Part shown: positions 2,330 through 16,133 of the stretch, piece after piece | How the letters are laid out: every line of letters starts with the position of its first letter | Numbering within the stretch: the stretch's first letter is position 1 | DNA from: Alphaproteobacteria bacterium | Lineage (GTDB): Bacteria; Pseudomonadota; Alphaproteobacteria; Sphingomonadales; Emcibacteraceae | Reading direction: 5' to 3' | Length of the DNA: 64,000 nucleotides | Assembly (NCBI GenBank): GCA_030428615.1 | Contig: JAUIDN010000018.1 | Span: forward strand, 2,279 to 66,278 | Position numbers and translations under genes: made by a program | Notes under the pieces: model-generated | Databases searched by the model: none | Told to the model about the DNA's origin: nothing | Seen by the model: only the letters and a program-made list of their open reading frames with translations

Positions 2330-2719
2330 ATGCCCGATTATGACCGAAAAGCACTCGTTGAAAAATGGACCAGAATCTATGGTGCGGCACCGCCAAAAGG
2401 GCTTAGCCGCACTACACTTGAACTAGCTAACGCATATGATGAACAGGCCAAAAAATATGGTGGCCTACCTCGGGAGACCGAGCAGCTTCTCTTACGTATT
2501 GCACGGGAGGACAAAGTAGACCTCACCCTGCCCCAAAAACTAAAACCCGGCGCGCGTCTGGTTCGTGAATGGAATGGAACATCTTATGTGGTGGATATCA
2601 TCGAGAGCGGATATCTATGGCAAGACCAGGTCTATAAATCGCTATCAGTTATCGCAAGAGAGATAACAGGCACGAGATGGTCGGGCCCACGCTTCTTTGG
2701 TCTCAGGAGCGCCTCATGA
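2330..2719 (+). CDS. DUF2924 domain protein (commonly paired with serine recombinases)
   Basis: C-terminal WNG..Y.V......Y.W....YKSLS.IAR.ITG..WSGP.FFGL pattern typical of DUF2924. AGGAG is 6 nt upstream of the ATG. ATGA overlap with the recombinase start. Confidence 0.65.
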   Translation: MPDYDRKALVEKWTRIYGAAPPKGLSRTTLELANAYDEQAKKYGGLPRETEQLLLRIAREDKVDLTLPQKLKPGARLVREWNGTSYVVDIIESGYLWQDQVYKSLSVIAREITGTRWSGPRFFGLRSAS

Positions 2720-4296
2720 GCACTAAAAAGCTTAAAGCCGCTATCTATACTCGTAAATCCACAGAATATGGCCTGGAGCAGGATTTTAACAGCCTTGCCG
2801 CGCAGCGGGAAGCGGCGGAAGCCTATATCACCAGTCAGAAGTCACAAGGATGGATTCTCGTCAATAACAACTATGATGATGGTGGCATCTCTGGCGGCAC
2901 CATGGAGCGCCCTGCCCTTCAGACGTTGCTAGATGATGTTAAACGTGGGCGGGTAGACATCATCGTTGTTTACAAAGTAGATCGCCTTACACGGTCCCTC
3001 GCTGACTTTTCAAGGATCATTGATTTGTTGGATGAAGCGGACGCTTCCTTCGTCTCCGTCACCCAGCAATTTAATACGACCGATAGCATGGGGCGTCTTA
3101 CTCTAAATGTGCTCCTGTCCTTCGCTCAGTTTGAACGGGAGGTCACTTCAGAACGTATCCGCGACAAGATCCTCGCCTCCAAACAAAAAGGTATGTGGAT
3201 GGGTGGCACAGTTCCCCTTGGATATGACAACGTGGGAAAAAAGCTGGTGATAAACACAGAAGAAGCAGAACTCATAACACTCATCTTCAAAACGTATCTC
3301 AAGTCTTCTGGGATCAAGGAAACTTGCCAGAAGATCAACGATTTGGGGTACAGAACAAAATCAAGAAACGGAGGGCGGGGCAAAGGAAGTAAGTTCTGGT
3401 GTGGTCATGTTACTTACATTCTGAAGAACCGTTTATATATCGGTGAGATTACGCACAAGCGAAAGTACTATTTGGGAAAACATGAAGCGATCTTAGATCA
3501 GGATATATGGAGCAAAGTTCAAGACAAGATCGAAGCCTCGAAAGCAAATATCAAAAATGGCGTCCACTTTATAAATCCGAGCCTACTTACCGGGATGTTA
3601 AGAACGGACAAGGGAGAAATCCTTAGCCCAACTCATACTAAAAAGAATGAAAATCGCTATCGCTACTATATTACCAAGTCTGATGATCGAAATCATATAT
3701 CGACAAGGTATCCCGCTCAGAAAATTGAGCGCGCTGTCCTTAAAGTACTAAAAAGCGAAATGAGTGATATTTTAAAATGTGAAATAGAAACCTCGGAAAT
3801 GATAACCCGTCTTCAAGCGCCTAACCCAGTTGAAGTCCGGTCGGCATTGCTCGAATTTGTTACGGCCATTTCTGTATCTAATGATAAATTGGAAATCACA
3901 TTGTCTTCCGACTTCGGAAGCAACGATCAACCAATCCTATCGGTGCCCATAGATATAAGTGAATGTTCGCGCGGTCGCAAGAGCATCATCCCATGCGGCG
4001 AGCAAGTCATCCATGAACCGGATCAAAAACTGATCAAACTCATCGCCAATGCATACCTTTACGCAAAGGAACTTCAATCTGGAAAATATAAAACGATGGG
4101 TGAACTCGCCGACAAACTAAGCACCAACAAATCAGATTTAGGTAAGATAGTTCGCCTCTCGTATTTGGCACCTGATATTATCAATGCAGTTATACGAGGC
4201 GAGCAATCCCTACTACTAAATGCAACTTTTCTAAGAAGATTGAAAACGATTTCCGCCGATTGGAAGAATCAAAGAATAGCATTTAATTCAGCCTAA
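2716..4296 (+). CDS. Large serine recombinase (integrase/resolvase family)
   Basis: N-terminal AAIYTRKSTE (catalytic Ser), DGGISG, VDRLTRS and QREVTSERI resolvase motifs, followed by a long recombinase/zinc-ribbon-type C-terminal extension. Start chosen at ATG 2716 (MSTKKLKAAIY), overlapping the DUF2924 stop. Confidence 0.9.
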   Translation: MSTKKLKAAIYTRKSTEYGLEQDFNSLAAQREAAEAYITSQKSQGWILVNNNYDDGGISGGTMERPALQTLLDDVKRGRVDIIVVYKVDRLTRSLADFSRIIDLLDEADASFVSVTQQFNTTDSMGRLTLNVLLSFAQFEREVTSERIRDKILASKQKGMWMGGTVPLGYDNVGKKLVINTEEAELITLIFKTYLKSSGIKETCQKINDLGYRTKSRNGGRGKGSKFWCGHVTYILKNRLYIGEITHKRKYYLGKHEAILDQDIWSKVQDKIEASKANIKNGVHFINPSLLTGMLRTDKGEILSPTHTKKNENRYRYYITKSDDRNHISTRYPAQKIERAVLKVLKSEMSDILKCEIETSEMITRLQAPNPVEVRSALLEFVTAISVSNDKLEITLSSDFGSNDQPILSVPIDISECSRGRKSIIPCGEQVIHEPDQKLIKLIANAYLYAKELQSGKYKTMGELADKLSTNKSDLGKIVRLSYLAPDIINAVIRGEQSLLLNATFLRRLKTISADWKNQRIAFNSA

Positions 4297-4507: not shown

Positions 4508-6835
4508 ATGGAACCGGTCTTCGTTGATCTTCATATCCACACTTCGTCAAATTTTGAGCAACCAAATGAAGGTTATGATTTGAAGCAGCTAAAAGCGGGT
4601 ATCGAAGCGATTGCCGGTGAACAACCATATCTCATATCGATCACTGATCACAATTTTGTTAACAAGAAGGTGTACCTGGAAGCTGTTCAAGAAATCGAAC
4701 ACATATTGCTTGGTGTAGAACTTCATATAAGGAACTACCCTGAATGTAAGCCATATCATTGCCACATGATCTTCAATATAGAAGCAATTGACGCCGCAAC
4801 AATTGACGATGTAAATGATAAATTAGATGAACTCTTTCCTAAGAAAACTGTCAGCAACGATGATAATATACCTAGCTTGGAAACAATAATGAATTGCTTC
4901 GATAGTTATGAGTTCTTACTTCTTCCACACGGAGGACAAAATCACTCTACTTTTGACACATCCATCCCTCATGGAGTTGAATTTGACAAAACAATGGAAA
5001 GAAACATTTACTATAATCACTTTGATGGATTTACGGCTAGAGGCACTGGTGGTTTAGAGAGGACGCTAAGATATTTCGAACGCTTGGGTATTAAGGACTT
5101 TGTTAATTTGGTAACGGCGACAGATAATTATACCCCGAATACTTACCCGGACTGCAAAGCTGGTCGGGCCGCATCCGATTTCGTACCCACATGGATGCTT
5201 GCATCTCCAACTTTTAATGGATTGAGATTGTCTCTCTCGGAATCGTCTCGGTTGGTTTATGGTGATAAGCCGGATTCTTGGTTTGAGTATATTGAATCAG
5301 TATCATTAAATAATGAAAATATTGATATAGATGTGAAGCTTACCCCAGGACTGAATGTGGTAATTGGCGGGTCTTCAAGTGGAAAATCATTATTTGCAGA
5401 CTCTCTATATCGCAAAATCACAAATGATTTTGAAGATAGCGACTATATCGATACCCCATACCAAATAGAAAAAATTGAGGTAACAAATCCAGCTGGGCAG
5501 CATCCGCATTATTTCAATCAAAATTACATTCTGAAAGTGTGTGATCAGAAGGACCAGAACAACACGATTGATAATATATCAATTCTAAAAAGTGTGTTTC
5601 CTCCTGACGACATTGAAAGAAACAAAATCGTAAATGCCCTACATGGGCTAAGTTCAAGCCTAAAGGATCTCGTTCAATCAATTACAGAAATTGAATTATT
5701 GCAAGAGGCCCTGAATAAGATTCCTGTCTTGTCAAGATTAATCGTTACAGAGGAAATTCATGACAATCCAATACGCCTAATTCTTCCAAGGCACAGAGAC
5801 ATGGAGCTAATTAGTTACTCAGAGGCAGACTATGACCGACACAATCAAATTCTTGAAGAAATCGATCAAACCCTTGCAAAAAACCCTCTAGTTGTGCACA
5901 ACACGGATTTAGTAACAGAACTTCAGCAAGAGCTGATTGAGGCATTCAATAATTCTCTTTTTGAAGAAATTGTCAGAGCTAATATTACTGAACATAAGTC
6001 TCTATTAGACGACGCTCAGATAAAGGAAAATCAAAAGGTCAAGTTGAGAACCAACGAATTTCAAAACTTGTTGGATTGTATAAAGAAATATCTGAGATTT
6101 GAGAAACAATTTTACGAATCTCTAGTTGAAATATCTAAGTTCTCAATAAAGATTCCAAACAAGCCTATAACGTCTATGGGGCATAAACTATCCATTGAGA
6201 ATAAGTTTGAACTCTCCAAAGAGAAATTCTTAGCTGTAATCAATGAAACTCTCAAAGCGGAGTATCAAATCGCGTCCTTTGAAGACTTGACCCCAGAATT
6301 ATTATTTAAGCATCGATTTAAAAGAAGAGACCCTAAAATTGTCGAATATCAAGATTTTGAAAACTATGTAAATCATAGGTTTTCTGAAATGAACAAGAAG
6401 ACCTACAAAATTATTACAAATGATGGCCGGAATTTTGATGAACTGAGTGCTGGATGGAAGACATCTGTTATACTGGACTTGGTGCTTGGATGGGATGCCG
6501 ATCGTGCTCCACTAATAATCGATCAGCCTGAGGATAATCTAGCCACAGGTTATATTAATGCCGGACTACTCTCAGCTATCAAAGAATGCAAATCGAAGAA
6601 GCAGATAATACTTATTTCTCATAACGCTACGATTCCAATGCTAGGGGATGCTCAAAACATCGTCTTCTGCACCAATGACAATAATAAAATATCAATTGCA
6701 TCCAATCCACTTGAGGGAGAGATTAATGGTAAAAATGTCGTGGATTTGATTGCCGAAGTAACTGATGGAGGAAAATCGTCAATCAAGAAGCGTGTGAAGA
6801 AATACAATCTTAAAGACTTTCGAGGTGAAGAATGA
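4508..6835 (+). CDS. PHP-domain phosphoesterase fused to a coiled-coil SMC/Rad50-like ABC ATPase (Ppl-like candidate defence protein)
   Basis: PHP motifs in order: VDLHIHT, ITDHN, GVELH, LLPHGG. ATPase motifs: LNVVIGGSSSGKS Walker A (nt 5366-5389), a ~330-aa E/K/L/Q-rich insertion, ELSAGWKT signature-like, PLIIDQPEDNL Walker B (nt 6512-6541) and ILISHN His-switch. No competing ORF on other frames. Confidence 0.8.
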   Translation: MEPVFVDLHIHTSSNFEQPNEGYDLKQLKAGIEAIAGEQPYLISITDHNFVNKKVYLEAVQEIEHILLGVELHIRNYPECKPYHCHMIFNIEAIDAATIDDVNDKLDELFPKKTVSNDDNIPSLETIMNCFDSYEFLLLPHGGQNHSTFDTSIPHGVEFDKTMERNIYYNHFDGFTARGTGGLERTLRYFERLGIKDFVNLVTATDNYTPNTYPDCKAGRAASDFVPTWMLASPTFNGLRLSLSESSRLVYGDKPDSWFEYIESVSLNNENIDIDVKLTPGLNVVIGGSSSGKSLFADSLYRKITNDFEDSDYIDTPYQIEKIEVTNPAGQHPHYFNQNYILKVCDQKDQNNTIDNISILKSVFPPDDIERNKIVNALHGLSSSLKDLVQSITEIELLQEALNKIPVLSRLIVTEEIHDNPIRLILPRHRDMELISYSEADYDRHNQILEEIDQTLAKNPLVVHNTDLVTELQQELIEAFNNSLFEEIVRANITEHKSLLDDAQIKENQKVKLRTNEFQNLLDCIKKYLRFEKQFYESLVEISKFSIKIPNKPITSMGHKLSIENKFELSKEKFLAVINETLKAEYQIASFEDLTPELLFKHRFKRRDPKIVEYQDFENYVNHRFSEMNKKTYKIITNDGRNFDELSAGWKTSVILDLVLGWDADRAPLIIDQPEDNLATGYINAGLLSAIKECKSKKQIILISHNATIPMLGDAQNIVFCTNDNNKISIASNPLEGEINGKNVVDLIAEVTDGGKSSIKKRVKKYNLKDFRGEE

Positions 6836-7068
6836 AATTAGTATTTTGCAAGAACGAAGACCTGGAAATATCCGTGTTCAAAGAAGTCTCCGGCAATAGG
6901 GAGGAATTTAGTTATATTGATATGATAAAAGATCTTATTGCAACAAGAGAGTTAGAAGCCTCTGAATTGGAAGGTGAATTTTCTGATGCAGAAATTAACA
7001 GTATTAATTCAATGGTTGATCACATCAATGATGAGATCGCTGAATTCTACTCTGAAGACGAAGAATAA
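6832..7068 (+). CDS. Small, highly acidic protein translationally coupled to the PHP-ATPase
   Basis: ATG overlaps the upstream stop (ATGA at 6832-6835). 78 aa with 23 Asp/Glu versus 6 Lys/Arg by my count. No family recognised. Confidence 0.55.
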   Translation: MKLVFCKNEDLEISVFKEVSGNREEFSYIDMIKDLIATRELEASELEGEFSDAEINSINSMVDHINDEIAEFYSEDEE

Positions 7069-7185: not shown

Positions 7186-7265
7186 AAAAACAGCGGACAC
7201 TTTGGATAGGATCAGAGACTTTGGGAGAAAATGCATCGAATTTCCGGATAATTAGACGTCTCTGT
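7186..7265. repeat. Copy A of a ~80-nt conserved element
   Basis: Motif blocks: AAAAACAGCGGACACTTTG, N8, CAGAGACTYTGGG, ~20 nt, GATAAT, N3-4, CGTCTCTGT. They are shared with 8842-8919 in the same order and spacing. The first 40 nt match at 33/40 ungapped, including a perfect 19-mer. Contains a 7-bp inverted repeat CAGAGAC/GTCTCTG. Confidence 0.75.
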
Positions 7266-7357
7266 CCGCTTGTTAGCACAAACAACCAAGCTAATCCATT
7301 GATACTTAAACACTAAGTATATAGTGATAATAATACCAAGGTTAGCAGGAGAATGGA

Positions 7358-7392
7358 TGGTGGCACGTAGTAAGTTCGAACTAGTCTCCTCC
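7358..7392 (-). pseudogene. Decayed tRNA 3'-half fragment (att-like remnant)
   Basis: TGGTGGCACGTAGTAAGTTCGAACTAGTCTCCTCC aligns ungapped with the 3' 37 nt of tRNA-Val (9013-9049) at 26/37. The match includes the CCA-acceptor end and the TTCGAAC T-loop. T-stem pairing is only partial, so it is not a functional tRNA. Confidence 0.45.
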
Positions 7393-7593
7393 TTACTATC
7401 AACCCATTGAATCCATTATACTAATATCTCTCAATTTCAGCTTTCACACGAAAATGGATACTTGAGCATCCATTAAGAGGGTTTTTCTTAATGTAACTGT
7501 ACATAATAAAGGATTAACTTGACTTCAATACTATATTTATATACTTATAATATATATATGTATTATTCTATGATTATTAACAAGGAGGTTAAT

Positions 7594-8031
7594 ATGCCTG
7601 CCGTAAAAGAAAATACAAATGCCACAGCCGCTTTTAGCCCTGAAATTCTGCGGGATCCCGAAAAACGCAGAGCTTATTCTGCAACCGCTATGAAAGCGTT
7701 TGTGCGAATGATGGATGAATGGAACGCACCCGTTGCGCAGCGTTGTGCGATATTGGGCGATATTCCTCAACAAACTTACTACAAATGGGCAAGAGGTGAG
7801 GTAACTACGCTCAGCCGCGACCAGTTAGAACGCATTGGAGTTACGCTTGGGATCTACAAAGGTCTTCGCATTCTCTTTAATGATGAGGGTGGTCGAAACA
7901 GATGGTTTAAAAGTGCCAATCATGATTACGCTTTCAGAGGTCAAACACCTGTTGATAGGATGGCTGCAGGAAGCATTACCGATCTTTATGCTGTGAGAGA
8001 ATACGTAGATGGTATGCGTGGTGCTCACTAA
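7594..8031 (+). CDS. Xre-family antitoxin with DUF2384 toxin-binding domain (MbcA/ParS type)
   Basis: AGGAGG lies 5 nt upstream of ATG 7594 (the 7519 start in the ORF track is likely an over-extension). HTH-like middle region and a C-terminal P.DRM....I.DLYAV..Y.D pattern typical of DUF2384. The stop abuts the RES gene start. Confidence 0.85.
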   Translation: MPAVKENTNATAAFSPEILRDPEKRRAYSATAMKAFVRMMDEWNAPVAQRCAILGDIPQQTYYKWARGEVTTLSRDQLERIGVTLGIYKGLRILFNDEGGRNRWFKSANHDYAFRGQTPVDRMAAGSITDLYAVREYVDGMRGAH

Positions 8032-8736
8032 ATGTCCGAATTCGATTATGTCACTGATGAACGTAATATAAGTCGCCTAATAAATAGTGCATATCCTACA
8101 GTCAGTGTATTTGAAACGTTGGCCGATACACCCGAAGAAATACGGGATCTCTTTGCGTTGGAAATGAGTACAAATCCAAGACTAAATGCTCCCCTCGGTA
8201 GGCTTGCCCTAATTCCCGATGAAGGTATAGTCACTGGTGATTCAGCAACATATGTTATGGCAGCATTTGTCCATTCCAATGAAGATGGCGGCCGCTTTAA
8301 TGATGGACGACTTGGCGCATGGTATGCTGCTTTTGAAGTCGAAACAACTATAAGTGAAACTGTGTATCACCTGAGCAAGCGATTAGCTATGTCTGAAGGT
8401 GGCTTTCCTCAAAGAATACAAATGAGGGAATTAATCACTTCCATTGGCGTTCCCTTATTAAATCTTTGTGGCTGTCGAGAAACTCATCCAGAGTTATACG
8501 ATTTGGACGACTATTCTAAATCCCAAGACTTTGCTAATTCAATTAGATGGCCGTTCGCCAAGGATGGTAATGCGGGAATCCTATTTGATAGTGTTAGACG
8601 AGAAGGATACAAAAATGTATGTATTTTCAATCCAACTGCACTTAATCGCCCTGTGAATCAAGGGGATCACTATCAATATGATTGGGATAGTGAAGGTAAG
8701 GTAACTGTTTCAAAAATTATTAACATTGTTGTATAA
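8032..8736 (+). CDS. RES-domain toxin (NAD+-targeting MbcT/ParT family)
   Basis: GGRFNDG (Arg), WYAAFEVETTISE (Glu) and LFDSVRREG (Ser) motifs in RES order. Starts 1 nt after the antitoxin stop, which is the classic Xre-RES operon layout. Confidence 0.85.
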   Translation: MSEFDYVTDERNISRLINSAYPTVSVFETLADTPEEIRDLFALEMSTNPRLNAPLGRLALIPDEGIVTGDSATYVMAAFVHSNEDGGRFNDGRLGAWYAAFEVETTISETVYHLSKRLAMSEGGFPQRIQMRELITSIGVPLLNLCGCRETHPELYDLDDYSKSQDFANSIRWPFAKDGNAGILFDSVRREGYKNVCIFNPTALNRPVNQGDHYQYDWDSEGKVTVSKIINIVV

Positions 8737-8841
8737 GATTTTAGCGAACCTGACTATGATCAGAGCAAGCTTTATTCTCTAATAAAATATCAAATTTGAA
8801 AATAATCCTTAATATGAAGAATCTAGCTTCGGTACAAATTC

Positions 8842-8919
8842 AAAAACAGCGGACACTTTGATTTGCTCCAGAGACTCTGGGTTATTTTGCCATATACTAT
8901 TGATAATAACCGTCTCTGT
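8842..8919. repeat. Copy B of the ~80-nt conserved element
   Basis: Same motif blocks and spacing as 7186-7265. Lies 93 nt from the 3' end of tRNA-Val, while copy A lies 92 nt from the tRNA-like fragment. Confidence 0.75.
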
Positions 8920-9012
8920 ACCCGAATTTACACAGATAAACTATACGTAAGTCTTTGAAATATAAACATTACTTCTTTAGCGTGTATAATATTATATTTC
9001 TTCAATTATAGA

Positions 9013-9087
9013 TGGTGGGCGGTACAAGGGTCGAACTTGTGACCTCCTCGATGTCAACGAGGCGCTCTACCACTGAGCTAACCGCCC
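9013..9087 (-). tRNA. tRNA-Val (anticodon GAC)
   Basis: The reverse complement folds as a cloverleaf: GGGCGGT/ACCGCCC acceptor, GCTC/GAGC D-stem, CCTCG-TTGACAT-CGAGG anticodon arm and ACAAG-TTCGACC-CTTGT T-arm. CCA is encoded. Confidence 0.95.
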
Positions 9088-13469: not shown

Positions 13470-16133
13470 TTAGCTATTTTTTAGCGCTGCCTGTGCCGCT
13501 GCAAGGCGGGCGATCGGAACCCTGTAAGGAGAACAGGATACATAATCAAGTCCGATATTATGACAAAACTCTACGGATGCCGGGTCCCCACCATGCTCAC
13601 CGCAGATACCAACCTTCAGATTATTTTTGGTTGAACGTCCCCGTTCAACGCCAATTTTAACCAATTCACCAACACCGTTCTGATCCAGGCTGACAAACGG
13701 ATCCTGTTCATAAATATCCGCTTTTAAATAATCTTCTAAAAAGCGTGCACTATCATCGCGGCTGATACCGTATGTGGTTTGTGTTAAATCATTTGTACCG
13801 AAACTGAAAAAGTCCGCATCGTTGGCAATTTCGCCCGCCTGTAAAGCCGCGCGCGGCAGCTCAATCATCGTACCGACCATATAGTCAAGTTTTTCGCCAG
13901 AAGCTGCTATAACGTCATCGGCGATATTGCAAATCAGTTTCTTTAATATCTCAAGCTCTTTTCGTGACCCTACCAATGGTACCATAATTTCCGGAATAAC
14001 CGCTTCACCAAGGTTTTTTGAAACTTCAAGAGCCGCTTCAGTAATAGCACGTGCCTGCATTTCGTATATCTCGGGGAAGGAAATACCCAAACGGCATCCA
14101 CGGTGGCCAAGCATCGGGTTAAATTCGTGTAACTCTTCCGCGCGGCGACGCAGAAAGGCCACGTCAACACCCATCGCTTTAGCAACATCCTGAAAATCAT
14201 CCTCATGTTGCGGAAGAAATTCATGAAGTGGCGGATCAAGAAGACGTACGGTTACTGGCAGCCCCTTCATAATCGTAAACAGGTCAATAAAATCCTGCTT
14301 TTGAACCGGAAGAAGTTTTTCAAGCGCTGCACGGCGCCCCGTTTCGCTATCAGACATGATCATTTGACGCACGTTAATGATACGGTCAGCGTCAAAAAAC
14401 ATATGTTCGGTCCGGCAAAGGCCGATACCTTCCGCCCCAAACTCCCGCGCTGCCGATGCATCAAGTGGCGTTTCAGCATTGGTACGGACATTAAGGGTGC
14501 GTTTCTCATCAGCCCACCCCATAAGCTCACCGAAGTGCCCTCCGAGTTCAGGTTTGATTGTCGCTACTTCACCTGCCATAACTTCGCCATTACTGCCATC
14601 AATAGTAATGATATCGTGGTTCCCTATGACACGGCCACCCACCGAAATTGTTTTATTAGTCAAATCAATATGAAGCGAACCGGCACCGGAGACGCAAGGT
14701 CGACCCATCCCACGTGCCACAACCGCTGCATGTGATGTCATACCACCGCGGCTGGTAAGTATCCCTTTAGCCGCATGCATACCATGGATATCTTCCGGGC
14801 TTGTTTCTATTCTCACCAGAACGACATCCTTCCCCTCTTTCGCAAGTTCTTCCGCTTCATCTGCGGTAAAACAGACCATACCGCTCGCCGCGCCGGGAGA
14901 AGCAGGCAATCCTTTTGTCAGAACATCTCTTTCTGCCGCAGGGTCCAGTGTCGGATGAAGTAATTGATCAAGAGCGCCAGGTTCAACCCGAAGAAGCGCC
15001 TCATCAACGCTGATAATGCCGTCGTGAACCATTTCAACCGCTATTTTAAGAGCTGCCGGTGCAGTTCTTTTGCCGCTTCGAGTCTGCAATATCCATAGTT
15101 TTCCCTGCTGCACGGTAAATTCGATATCCTGCATATCACGGTAATGAGATTCCAGTTTTTGAAACACACTTGCAAGATCATTATAAACATCCGGCATGCT
15201 TTCTTCCATAGACGGCATGTCGGAACCCGCCGCTATTCTTGATACTTTCGTGAGGTTTTGAGGTGTGCGGATACCAGCCACAACATCTTCGCCCTGCGCA
15301 TTAATCAGATATTCACCGTAATACGCGTTTTCACCGGTTGACGGGTCACGTGTGAACGCAACACCGGTAGCGCAATCATCACCCATATTCCCAAATACCA
15401 TTGATTGCACATTAACGGCGGTACCCCATGTATGGGGAATATTATGAAGTCTGCGGTAAACCATCGCCCGCTCAATCATCCAGGAGCCGAATACTGCATC
15501 AATTGCGCCCCAGAGCTGCTCATTTACATCCTGCGGGAAAGGGTGGCCCAATTCTTCTTCGGCTTTTTCCTTGAAGGCCTGAGAAAGTTTTTTCCAGTCT
15601 TCTGCTTCAAGTTCAGTGTCGAGCACAAAACCATTTTCTTCCTTGTGAATTTCAAGAAGTTCTTCAAACAGATAATGATCAACGCCAAGCACAACATCCG
15701 AATACATCTGTATAAAACGTCGGTAGCTGTCGTATGCAAAACGTTCGTCACCGGATTTTCTGGCGAGCGCTTCAACAGTAACATCATTGAGGCCAAGGTT
15801 TAAAACCGTATCCATCATACCCGGCATAGACACACGCGCGCCGGAGCGAACAGAAACGAGCAACGGATTTTCTTCATCACCAAATTTCGCGCCGACGGTT
15901 TTTTCAATCGCCGCGATGGATGCTTCTACCTGCTGCGTGAGCCCTTCCGGATAATTTTTATTATTTTCATAAAAAGCGGTACAGACCTCGGTTGTGATCG
16001 TGAAGCCCGGTGGAACAGGAAGGCCCAAGTTTGACATTTCTGCCAGATTTGCCCCCTTTCCCCCAAGAAGATCTTTCATGGAAGCTTCGCCCTCAGCCGA
16101 TCCATCACCGAAATTATATACCCATTTTGCCAT
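13470..16133 (-). CDS. ppdK: Pyruvate, phosphate dikinase
   Basis: ~887 aa. N-terminal KWVY.F....EG, catalytic GGMTSHAAVVARG phospho-His motif and C-terminal PEP-utilising TIM-barrel motifs (GICGE). ATG at 16133 is preferred over the TTG at 16139. Confidence 0.95.
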   Translation of the reverse strand: MAKWVYNFGDGSAEGEASMKDLLGGKGANLAEMSNLGLPVPPGFTITTEVCTAFYENNKNYPEGLTQQVEASIAAIEKTVGAKFGDEENPLLVSVRSGARVSMPGMMDTVLNLGLNDVTVEALARKSGDERFAYDSYRRFIQMYSDVVLGVDHYLFEELLEIHKEENGFVLDTELEAEDWKKLSQAFKEKAEEELGHPFPQDVNEQLWGAIDAVFGSWMIERAMVYRRLHNIPHTWGTAVNVQSMVFGNMGDDCATGVAFTRDPSTGENAYYGEYLINAQGEDVVAGIRTPQNLTKVSRIAAGSDMPSMEESMPDVYNDLASVFQKLESHYRDMQDIEFTVQQGKLWILQTRSGKRTAPAALKIAVEMVHDGIISVDEALLRVEPGALDQLLHPTLDPAAERDVLTKGLPASPGAASGMVCFTADEAEELAKEGKDVVLVRIETSPEDIHGMHAAKGILTSRGGMTSHAAVVARGMGRPCVSGAGSLHIDLTNKTISVGGRVIGNHDIITIDGSNGEVMAGEVATIKPELGGHFGELMGWADEKRTLNVRTNAETPLDASAAREFGAEGIGLCRTEHMFFDADRIINVRQMIMSDSETGRRAALEKLLPVQKQDFIDLFTIMKGLPVTVRLLDPPLHEFLPQHEDDFQDVAKAMGVDVAFLRRRAEELHEFNPMLGHRGCRLGISFPEIYEMQARAITEAALEVSKNLGEAVIPEIMVPLVGSRKELEILKKLICNIADDVIAASGEKLDYMVGTMIELPRAALQAGEIANDADFFSFGTNDLTQTTYGISRDDSARFLEDYLKADIYEQDPFVSLDQNGVGELVKIGVERGRSTKNNLKVGICGEHGGDPASVEFCHNIGLDYVSCSPYRVPIARLAAAQAALKNS

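What the first reader, a model, noticed from the sequence alone, without database searches (positions are those of the whole stretch)
7186..8919. Two copies of a ~80-nt block-conserved element bracket the Xre-RES cassette, each ~90 nt from a tRNA 3' end
Seen in sequence:
- 7186-7265 and 8842-8919 share AAAAACAGCGGACACTTTG (19/19), then 8 unrelated nt, then CAGAGACT[T/C]TGGG, then ~20 unrelated nt, then GATAAT, 3-4 nt, and CGTCTCTGT.
- The blocks keep the same order and spacing.
- CAGAGAC and GTCTCTG form a 7-bp inverted repeat 35-38 nt apart in both copies.
- Copy B ends 93 nt from the 3' end of tRNA-Val. Copy A ends 92 nt from the decayed tRNA 3' fragment.
- The motif blocks are better conserved than the tRNA-like part (26/37), which argues for selection on the blocks rather than a recent duplication.
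- Read on the minus strand, the element ends in GTGTCCGCTGTTTTT. In copy A only, AGCGGACA...TGTCCGCT can close a long hairpin before the T-run.

Inference, with three alternatives:
(a) protein-binding arm or accessory sites of an integrative element, present at the tRNA-proximal end of two tandem islands;
(b) a structured tRNA trailer/terminator or small RNA that was duplicated together with the att region;
(c) a small mobile repeat.
I cannot tell these apart from sequence alone.
Basis: partly seen in the sequence, partly recalled or inferred. Interest (0 to 1): 0.6.

Follow-up and report, generated by a model that had tools for sequence, protein, structure and literature searches.

The report
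Serine-recombinase island arm at tRNA-Val
The two 80-nt copies are real: each is the conserved end piece of a mobile island that inserts beside a tRNA gene using a large serine recombinase, and the same block pattern lies beside related recombinase genes and tRNA genes in many Proteobacteria, an enzyme class usually thought to need only short, simple sites.

Summary
It runs from the AAAACAGCGGACAC block, through GAGAC-N38-GTCTC and a conserved spacer, to TGGTGG, which is the CCA end of the tRNA.

**Where it occurs**
- The window's genome has four copies.
- Eight of 17 genus genomes carry it directly at tRNA-Val(GAC).
- Others have an empty site (tRNA-Val then cysD), so the unit belongs to the element and is not the native trailer.
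- In G005 and G007 a large serine recombinase (LSR) gene ends 10-25 nt before the unit.
- G009 repeats the window's layout, with a Phd-PIN pair in place of Xre-RES.
- No tyrosine integrase lies in these arrays.

**Wider family**
- Of 80 loci with LSR relatives (38-45% identity), 41 of the 72 with enough downstream DNA have a convergent tRNA within 600 nt.
- A DUF2924 gene lies directly upstream in 76 of 78.
- Many share the same blocks: span about 48 nt, 84-107 nt from the tRNA end.

**Best reading (about 0.5)**
The unit is the element-side arm of the attachment site. The palindrome is probably a non-crossover accessory site. In this genus a covarying outer stem plus a T-run adds a terminator for tRNA read-through.

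**Rivals**
Pure terminator, or non-coding RNA. It is not a dispersed repeat and not a decaying duplication.

The parts
7186..7270 (.). Copy A of the block-conserved element. Block 1 is at 7186-7204. The outer arms are AGCGGACA (7192-7199) and TGTCCGCT (7263-7270). GAGAC is at 7215-7219 and GTCTC at 7258-7262, a 48-nt span.
   Evidence: The span and block order match the wider LSR family.
7271..7363 (.). Conserved spacer of module A up to TGGTGG (7358-7363). It holds TAATCCATTGATA (7292-7304), which matches the IHF consensus when read on the minus strand, and an ACACTAAGTA block.
7358..7393 (-). tRNA-Val-like core fragment at the inner junction. It probably belongs to the Xre-RES cassette's own arm. 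The same variant letters occur in G011 (L010).
7394..7518 (.). Other arm of the cassette. It contains the inverted repeat AATGGAT-N8-ATCCATT (7453-7474), followed by a T-run.
Evidence: The function was not tested.
7519..8031 (+). Xre-type antitoxin gene.
   Evidence: PF20432, PF09722.
8032..8736 (+). RES toxin gene. G000 is the only one of the 42 family genomes with a match. It also holds a 64% paralogue (C1) and a short fragment (C40).
8842..8924 (.). Copy B of the element. Block 1 is at 8842-8860, GAGAC at 8871-8875 and GTCTC at 8912-8916. The outer arm TACCCG (8919-8924) pairs with block 1 only through G-U pairs in the tRNA sense.
8925..9018 (.). Spacer of module B up to the 3' end of tRNA-Val.
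9013..9087 (-). tRNA-Val(GAC), the target gene.
2330..2719 (+). DUF2924 gene, a near-constant partner upstream of this recombinase family.
   Evidence: 76 of 78 loci.
2677..4296 (+). Large serine recombinase of the element that ends in module A.
4508..7068 (+). Cargo inserted between the recombinase gene and module A: a 775-aa ATPase and a 78-aa acidic partner.
Evidence: Not re-tested here.

Best explanation
Each copy is the recombinase-proximal part of a conserved non-coding end module of about 180-225 nt. The module is the element-side arm of the attachment site of integrative elements driven by a DUF2924 plus large-serine-recombinase (LSR) operon. These elements insert at the 3' end of tRNA genes.

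In the window:
- Module A closes a phage-like element (methylase, terminase, DUF2924, LSR, ATPase cargo).
- Module B closes a 1.65-kb Xre-RES cassette with no recombinase, which later inserted between that element and tRNA-Val.

Shown:
- The module is element-borne.
- It is linked to the LSR gene.
- It recurs once per island in arrays.
- Its block order and spacing are shared across a wide LSR family.

Inferred:
- The crossover lies at or next to TGGTGG, where homology between modules stops.
- The roughly 48-bp GAGAC...GTCTC inverted repeat is a second, non-crossover site bound by the LSR or by DUF2924. It sits about 8-10 helical turns from the crossover and, together with a bend, controls synapsis or direction, as accessory sites do for small serine resolvases.
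- In this genus the palindrome is enclosed by a covarying outer stem followed by an invariant T-run in the tRNA sense. The same DNA probably also stops read-through from the tRNA promoter into the island.
For: **Element-borne**
- Eight of 17 genus genomes have the module at tRNA-Val(GAC).
- G008, G010, G014 and one site in G006 have tRNA-Val followed directly by cysD.

**Linked to the LSR**
- The LSR stop lies 10-25 nt before the module in G005 and G007.
- G009 repeats the order DUF2924, LSR, cargo, module, toxin-antitoxin pair, module, tRNA-Val, with Phd-PIN as the pair.
- No tyrosine recombinase lies inside the G009 array or on G011:C110. The LSR is the only recombinase in the G009 array.

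**Family-wide**
- 41 of 72 LSR-relative loci have a convergent tRNA within 600 nt of the stop, and none of the 80 loci has a tRNA upstream of the LSR gene.
- DUF2924 lies directly upstream in 76 of 78.
- Strict GAGAC-N36-40-GTCTC occurs in 16 of 43 loci, against 0.0005 per shuffled sequence.
- The commonest span is 48 nt. The distance to the tRNA end clusters at 103-107, 94, 84-86 and 77-78 nt.
- The window's units align collinearly with these loci.

**Crossover not in the palindrome**
- The left and right halves always belong to the same subfamily.
- Relatives have a subfamily-1 module abutting tRNA-Val directly.

**Terminator layer**
- The outer stem has three pairs with changes on both sides, and 0 of 500 shuffles reach the observed score.
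- 84% of cells pair in the tRNA sense against 75% in the other sense, with 13 against 4 wobble cells.
- The arm duplex is more stable in the tRNA sense in 12 of 14 copies.
- AAAACA is near-invariant before the stem: 11 of 12 copies, and AAAAAA in the twelfth.
Against: - No binding or recombination data exist. LSRs are generally held to need only short sites and no accessory factors (my own knowledge).
- G011 keeps four copies, one with a perfect 12-bp stem, yet has no LSR of this clade at E<=1e-20. That fits a role independent of the recombinase.
- Covarying stems are the signature of base pairing, not of protein recognition.
- The distance classes follow relatedness, so the helical phasing rests on few independent cases.
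- The outer stem is absent from most distant relatives.
- Fold energies are unremarkable.
Confidence: 0.5

Rival explanations
1. The element is only a transcription terminator or insulator. It is an RNA hairpin plus U-run in the tRNA sense, which each island carries to stop read-through from the tRNA promoter or from a neighbouring island.
For: - The outer stem covaries and pairs better in the tRNA sense.
- The T-run is near-invariant (11 of 12 copies).
- The element sits between convergent genes.
- Copies persist in G011 without the cognate LSR.
- The C17 element has a simple hairpin-plus-T-run about 165 nt after its tRNA-Met.
Against: - The GAGAC and GTCTC blocks and block 1 keep their sequence, span and distance to the tRNA in GC-rich relatives that have no T-run and mostly no outer stem.
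- The enclosed loop is 63 nt, which is unusual for a terminator.
- Fold z-scores are weak.
Confidence: 0.2
2. The module encodes a conserved non-coding RNA. It could be a tRNA-trailer small RNA or a 3'-UTR element of the recombinase mRNA, acting on recombinase expression or on the reaction itself.
For: - Short conserved blocks are separated by variable stretches.
- Covarying stems of quite different sequence occupy the same geometry in the genus and in L112, L155 and L171.
- A second small hairpin has ACAC in its loop in some copies.
Against: - Mean fold z-scores are only -1.0 and -0.5.
- There is no Rfam match.
- The fifth base of GAGAC varies without compensation.
- There is no guide-like complementarity to the target tRNA: own pairings 6.95 and 7.53 against 7.22 and 7.48 for cross pairings.
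- The two tests of strand preference disagree.
Confidence: 0.15
3. The two copies are a decaying segmental duplication with no function, or a small dispersed mobile repeat.
For: Two copies lie 1.66 kb apart in direct orientation.
Against: - The blocks are 19/19 identical while the DNA between them has diverged.
- The same blocks occur in other genera beside recombinases only about 40% identical.
- There are at most five matches per genome, and the complete units lie at island ends.
Confidence: 0.03

Closest known systems
Staphylococcal cassette chromosome (SCC) elements with CcrAB/CcrC large serine recombinases
   Same: - An LSR drives insertion at the 3' end of a conserved gene without inactivating it.
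- Repeated insertion at the same site builds tandem composite islands.
- Some cassettes in the array lack a recombinase.
- CcrB is the nearest NCBIfam model, though far below its cut-off.
   Different: - The target here is a tRNA gene.
- The partner gene is DUF2924.
- A roughly 200-nt conserved arm with a 48-bp palindrome has no known SCC counterpart.
- The hosts are Proteobacteria.
Cis-mobilisable elements and tandem accretion of islands at tRNA genes (tyrosine-integrase systems; tycheposons in marine bacteria)
   Same: - Arrays of islands sit at one tRNA, each with its own att-like junction.
- Some members carry cargo only and no recombinase.
- The tycheposon preprint (10.1101/2020.12.28.424599) reports 910 of 937 elements with a tyrosine recombinase and the rest with an LSR.
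   Different: - No tyrosine integrase lies in the arrays examined.
- The tRNA-like fragment appears to be part of the arm rather than a displaced tRNA end.
Accessory sites of small serine recombinases (res sites II and III of Tn3/gamma-delta; Sin site II with an HU/IHF-type bend)
   Same: An inverted-repeat site lies at a fixed distance from the crossover site, with a possible host-factor box between or beside them.
   Different: This architecture is not described for large serine integrases. Binding was not tested here, and the span (48 bp) is that of an LSR site rather than a resolvase site.
Integron attC sites
   Same: Imperfect palindromes of variable sequence bracket small cassettes, including toxin-antitoxin pairs.
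   Different: - The ends have no GTTRRRY core.
- No IntI gene lies nearby.
- Each copy comes with a spacer and a tRNA-like core.
- The left and right halves are never mixed between subfamilies.
Serine-recombinase phages in Alphaproteobacteria (Wolbachia phage WO; Paracoccus phage vB_PamS_Pami6)
   Same: - The WO recombinase is 35% identical over 97-99% of the length.
- Papers on Wolbachia mention DUF2924.
- Pami6 is predicted to use a tRNA-Met site (PMC6536676).
   Different: I found no description of a conserved arm module or palindrome in the papers I read.

Membership tests
Large serine recombinase integrative element | The recombinase has a Resolvase catalytic domain followed by Recombinase and zinc-ribbon domains. 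| tested here: met
   PF00239 at 7.7e-37 and PF07508 at 2.2e-16. The zinc ribbon is weak, at 0.0044. The last 140 residues match no family.
Large serine recombinase integrative element | The attachment site lies next to the recombinase gene at the element's end. | tested here: met
   The module starts 10-25 nt after the stop in G005 and G007. A tRNA lies 157-469 nt after the stop in 43 distant loci.
Large serine recombinase integrative element | Simple att sites of about 50 bp, with no accessory sites or host factors. | tested here: inconclusive
   A conserved arm of about 200 nt with a separate 48-bp palindrome argues against a minimal site. Whether the arm is needed for recombination is untested.
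Large serine recombinase integrative element | Recombination by this enzyme at these junctions. | not testable with these tools
   Support is circumstantial only: it is the sole recombinase in the G009 array.
tRNA-targeting island of the tyrosine-integrase type | A tyrosine integrase gene lies next to the tRNA-proximal end. | tested here: not met
   There is no PF00589 hit near any module in G000, in the G009 array or on G011:C110.
Intrinsic (Rho-independent) terminator | A stable stem is immediately followed by a U-run on the transcribed strand. | tested here: inconclusive
   A GC-rich stem of 6-12 bp plus GUUUU(U) is present in the tRNA sense in 11 of the 12 aligned genus copies; the twelfth has an uninterrupted T-run. 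It encloses 63 nt, is not picked up by the simple scan and is absent in distant relatives. Transcript data were unavailable.
Integron attC site | R''/R' core sites (RYYYAAC and GTTRRRY), with IntI nearby. | tested here: not met
   Neither core is present at the ends of copy A or B. No integron integrase lies nearby.
Dispersed small repeat (MITE/REP type) | Many copies scattered in intergenic DNA, unrelated to island ends. | tested here: not met
   There are three to five matches per genome. The complete units lie at tRNA ends or island junctions, and the weaker or partial matches were not followed up.
Known RNA family (Rfam 15) | A match to a curated covariance model. | tested here: not met
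   Only the tRNA itself matched at E<=1.

The most novel reading that the evidence does not exclude
[quoted passage not shown] Unlike the textbook minimal LSR sites, it needs a complex arm: a second 48-bp GAGAC...GTCTC site held at a phased distance from the crossover, possibly with a host bending protein. If so, directionality and repeated insertion at the same tRNA are set by DNA architecture. The alternative reading is that the module is an RNA partner of the recombinase.
Probability: 0.35. Interest if true: 0.8.

Novelty: new variant of a known kind. Interest (0 to 1): 0.62.

Why it matters
Large serine integrases are valued as genome-engineering tools because their sites are short and need no cofactors. 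They are usually described as avoiding tRNA genes: the Islander paper (PMC4383910) states they were not known to target them.

The pattern found here is a large clade that sits against tRNA genes in over half of the loci with enough downstream DNA. It has a conserved arm of about 200 nt and a fixed-geometry palindrome. Three consequences would follow:
- It would widen the known target range of these enzymes.
- It would point to a regulated, arm-dependent mode of LSR recombination.
- It would give DUF2924 a testable role.

It also explains how small toxin-antitoxin cassettes without a recombinase accumulate next to tRNA-Val. Each carries its own copy of the arm.

Tried and rejected
- **Native tRNA trailer.** Rejected, because about half of the genus lacks the unit at tRNA-Val and four sites have cysD directly after the tRNA.
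- **Crossover inside the palindrome.** Rejected, because the left and right halves never mix between subfamilies and the spacer is absent from empty sites.
- **RNA guide for target choice.** The module's matches to its own tRNA are no longer than matches to other tRNAs.
- **Integron attC.** There are no core sites.
- **Known RNA family.** No Rfam match.
- **Strongly structured RNA.** Fold z-scores are weak.
- **Far end of the window's element.** Not found. The contig starts 2.3 kb before the window, and cysD in G000 (C11) has no tRNA fragment beside it.
- **The sequence after TGGTGG in the C18, C25 and G009 copies.** It matches no tRNA, tmRNA or Rfam family. I read it as a diverged arm variant.
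- **Broad-family covariation on the MAFFT alignment A8.** Not attempted, because the right-hand blocks are misaligned by 2 nt between lineages.
Full report
**1. Observation**

The two copies are as described.
- Block 1 (19/19 identical) lies at 7186-7204 and 8842-8860.
- GAGAC and GTCTC lie at 7215-7219/7258-7262 and at 8871-8875/8912-8916.
- tRNA-Val(GAC) is at 9013-9087 on the minus strand.
- TGGTGG starts at 7358 and 9013, which gives the stated gaps of 92 and 93 nt.
- AACAGCGGACAC occurs only three times in the 3.39-Mb genome, each time in a copy of this unit.

Homology does not stop at 80 nt. It runs through a conserved spacer to TGGTGG.

A profile search of the whole genome finds two more copies: C18:2197-2424 and a partial one at C25:51567-51686.

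**2. Distribution in relatives**

DNA, profile and covariance-model searches find the unit only in the window's genus, which has 18 species genomes. No hit came from the other four genera of the family. Public MAGs with the unit are labelled Emcibacteraceae or Kordiimonadaceae. Three marine metagenome contigs also carry it.

At tRNA-Val(GAC):
- Eight of 17 genomes have the unit next to the tRNA.
- One has a partial unit.
- The rest have none there.
- Four sites (G008, G010, G014 and one copy in G006) have the tRNA followed after about 90 nt by cysD.
- G002, G016 and G017 carry unrelated DNA with other direct repeats.

The unit is therefore brought by a mobile element and is not the native trailer.

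**3. Link to a recombinase**

- In G005 the remnant of a large serine recombinase (LSR) gene, 44% identical to the window's LSR at 2677-4296, stops 25 nt before the first of three tandem units.
- In G007 the LSR gene ends about 10 nt before a unit that abuts tRNA-Val.
- G009 repeats the window's layout: DUF2924, LSR, cargo, unit, a Phd-PIN pair, unit, tRNA-Val.

So two species carry different toxin-antitoxin pairs between two units at the same place.

The RES toxin has no homologue in the other 41 genomes of the family.

No tyrosine recombinase lies within the G009 array or on the G011 contig that holds three units about 24 kb apart. The LSR is the only recombinase in the G009 array. Units occur once per island, always at the tRNA-proximal end.

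**4. The wider recombinase family**

Relatives of the LSR (38-45% identity over the full length) were fetched from 80 loci in Alpha-, Gamma- and Deltaproteobacteria and others.
- A DUF2924 gene lies directly upstream in 76 of 78 loci.
- Of the 72 loci with enough downstream DNA, 41 have a convergent tRNA gene within 600 nt of the stop. The median distance is 267 nt, and no tRNA lies upstream in any of the 80 loci.
- Most targets are tRNA-Ser. Met, Thr, Tyr, Lys, Ala and Gln also occur.

These intergenic stretches share the window's block order:
- a GGTACCAC-like block;
- GAGAC, about 38 nt, GTCTC;
- a TAACCC block;
- then the tRNA end.

Strict GAGAC-N36-40-GTCTC occurs in 16 of 43 loci against 0.0005 per shuffled sequence. 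A looser form occurs in 30 of 43 against 0.048. The commonest span is 48 nt. The distance to the tRNA end clusters at 103-107, 94, 84-86 and 77-78 nt. The window's copies have spans of 48 and 46 nt at 95 and 96 nt.

These GC-rich relatives have no T-run beside the element. Most also lack the outer stem.

**5. Structure in the genus**

The outer arms (block 1 and the letters just after GTCTC) covary:
- AGCGGAC/GTCCGCT in the window;
- AGAGGGC/GCCCTCT in G007;
- CACAGGTC/GACCTGTG in G011;
- GAGGTCA/TGACCTC in G009.

On 12 copies, three pairs show changes on both sides. No shuffle out of 500 reaches the observed score, and slid controls pair at 47% or less.

Read in the tRNA sense, 84% of cells pair, with 13 wobble cells. 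In the other sense 75% pair, with four wobble cells. The arm duplex is more stable in the tRNA sense in 12 of 14 copies. AAAACA precedes the stem in 11 of the 12 copies, and the twelfth has AAAAAA, so a U-run follows the stem in that sense.

Three distant loci have 11-14-bp outer repeats of unrelated sequence in the same geometry.

Whole-element fold energies are unremarkable.

**6. Where the crossover is**

- All units share sequence up to ATGGTGG and then diverge. What follows is the tRNA, a tRNA-like fragment, or a third variant shared by the C18, C25, G009, G016 and TARA copies.
- Relatives have a subfamily-1 unit abutting tRNA-Val directly. That is the state expected before the cassette arrived.
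- The left and right halves of the palindrome always belong to the same subfamily.

I therefore place the crossover at or next to the tRNA 3' end and treat the palindrome as a non-crossover site. This step is inference.

**7. Mechanism**

The best-supported reading has two layers.

First, the GAGAC...GTCTC repeat has the size of an LSR dimer site and sits at a fixed distance from the crossover, possibly in helical phase with it. I take it to be an accessory site for the LSR or DUF2924.

IHF-consensus boxes add weak support for a bent nucleoprotein complex:
- 6 of 12 genus units have one in the spacer;
- 14 of 43 distant loci have one ending 2-6 nt before the tRNA.

Second, in this genus the outer stem plus T-run probably stops transcription coming from the tRNA.

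Against the first layer:
- There are no binding data.
- G011 keeps good copies without a cognate LSR.
- The distance classes are not independent of relatedness.

The rivals are a pure terminator and a non-coding RNA. A guide-RNA role is not supported.

**8. Comparison with known systems**

- The closest analogue in behaviour is the SCC family. There an LSR inserts at the 3' end of a conserved gene, tandem composites form, and some cassettes lack a recombinase. CcrB is the nearest NCBIfam model, far below its cut-off.
- Accretion of islands at tRNAs and cargo-only members are known for tyrosine-integrase systems and tycheposons.
- The Islander paper stated that serine integrases were not known to target tRNA genes.
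- One Paracoccus phage with a serine recombinase is predicted at tRNA-Met.
- The Wolbachia phage WO recombinase belongs to the same family.
- I found no description of the conserved arm or the palindrome, but my literature search was limited.

**9. Verdict**

The finding is real and functional. It is best filed as a new variant of a known kind: the arm of a tRNA-targeting LSR element. Its function is not yet established.

Noticed in passing
G000:C18:2376-2460 (L027), G000:C25:51716-51792 (L026), G009:C25 near 198800 (L025), G016:C101 (L080), TARA contig L100:340-440: In these copies TGGTGG is followed not by a tRNA but by a shared stretch of about 80 nt (TGTTGGCAGT..., then a CCCTG...CAGGG hairpin and a T-rich tail). 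It matches no tRNA, tmRNA or Rfam family. It may be the other arm of the attachment site, with its own terminator-like hairpin.
   Followed up: partly
L108, L111, L123, L129 (about 45 nt before the tRNA-Ser 3' end): Hyphomicrobium-type modules contain a T-arm-like GAGTTCGAATCC segment in inverted orientation relative to the target tRNA-Ser. This is unexplained.
   Followed up: no
L108, L110, L118, L142, L144, L168 and eight more loci, ending 2-6 nt before the tRNA 3' end: A full match to the IHF consensus WATCAANNNNTTR lies at a fixed position beside the tRNA end in 14 of 43 LSR loci, mostly in GC-rich hosts.
   Followed up: partly
G006:C66:77265-77344 and 120283-120362 (L060, L049): Two full tRNA-Val(GAC) genes lie 43 kb apart in the same orientation. 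One is followed by cysD and the other by a degenerate module. This looks like an island bounded by whole tRNA copies.
   Followed up: no
L046 (G017), L047 (G002), L051 (G016), just downstream of tRNA-Val(GAC): A different insert with direct repeats of GGTCACAA(TT) occupies the same tRNA. tRNA-Val(GAC) is therefore a hot spot used by at least two island families.
   Followed up: no
window 4508-7068; L038:8909-11640: The slot between the recombinase gene and the module holds different cargo in different species. In the window it is an ATPase with an acidic partner. In G009 it is a CDP-alcohol phosphatidyltransferase and a polysaccharide-synthesis protein.
   Followed up: partly
G000:C17:5783-7408 with tRNA-Met at 14631-14707; G012:C142: A second LSR (45% identical) lies 7 kb upstream of a convergent tRNA-Met. 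It has no recognisable module but has a simple hairpin-plus-T-run about 165 nt after the tRNA.
   Followed up: partly
G000:C25:78291-78400, beside a third LSR at C25:77508-77948: A weak relic of the subfamily-2 element lies about 330 nt upstream of the start of a third serine recombinase gene. This arrangement is unlike the others.
   Followed up: no
window 8963-8990 (+) and 9034-9005 (-): Promoter-like hexamers lie in the spacer of module B. One has its -35 hexamer in the tRNA T-arm and TATAAT right after the CCA end. These are consensus matches only.
   Followed up: no
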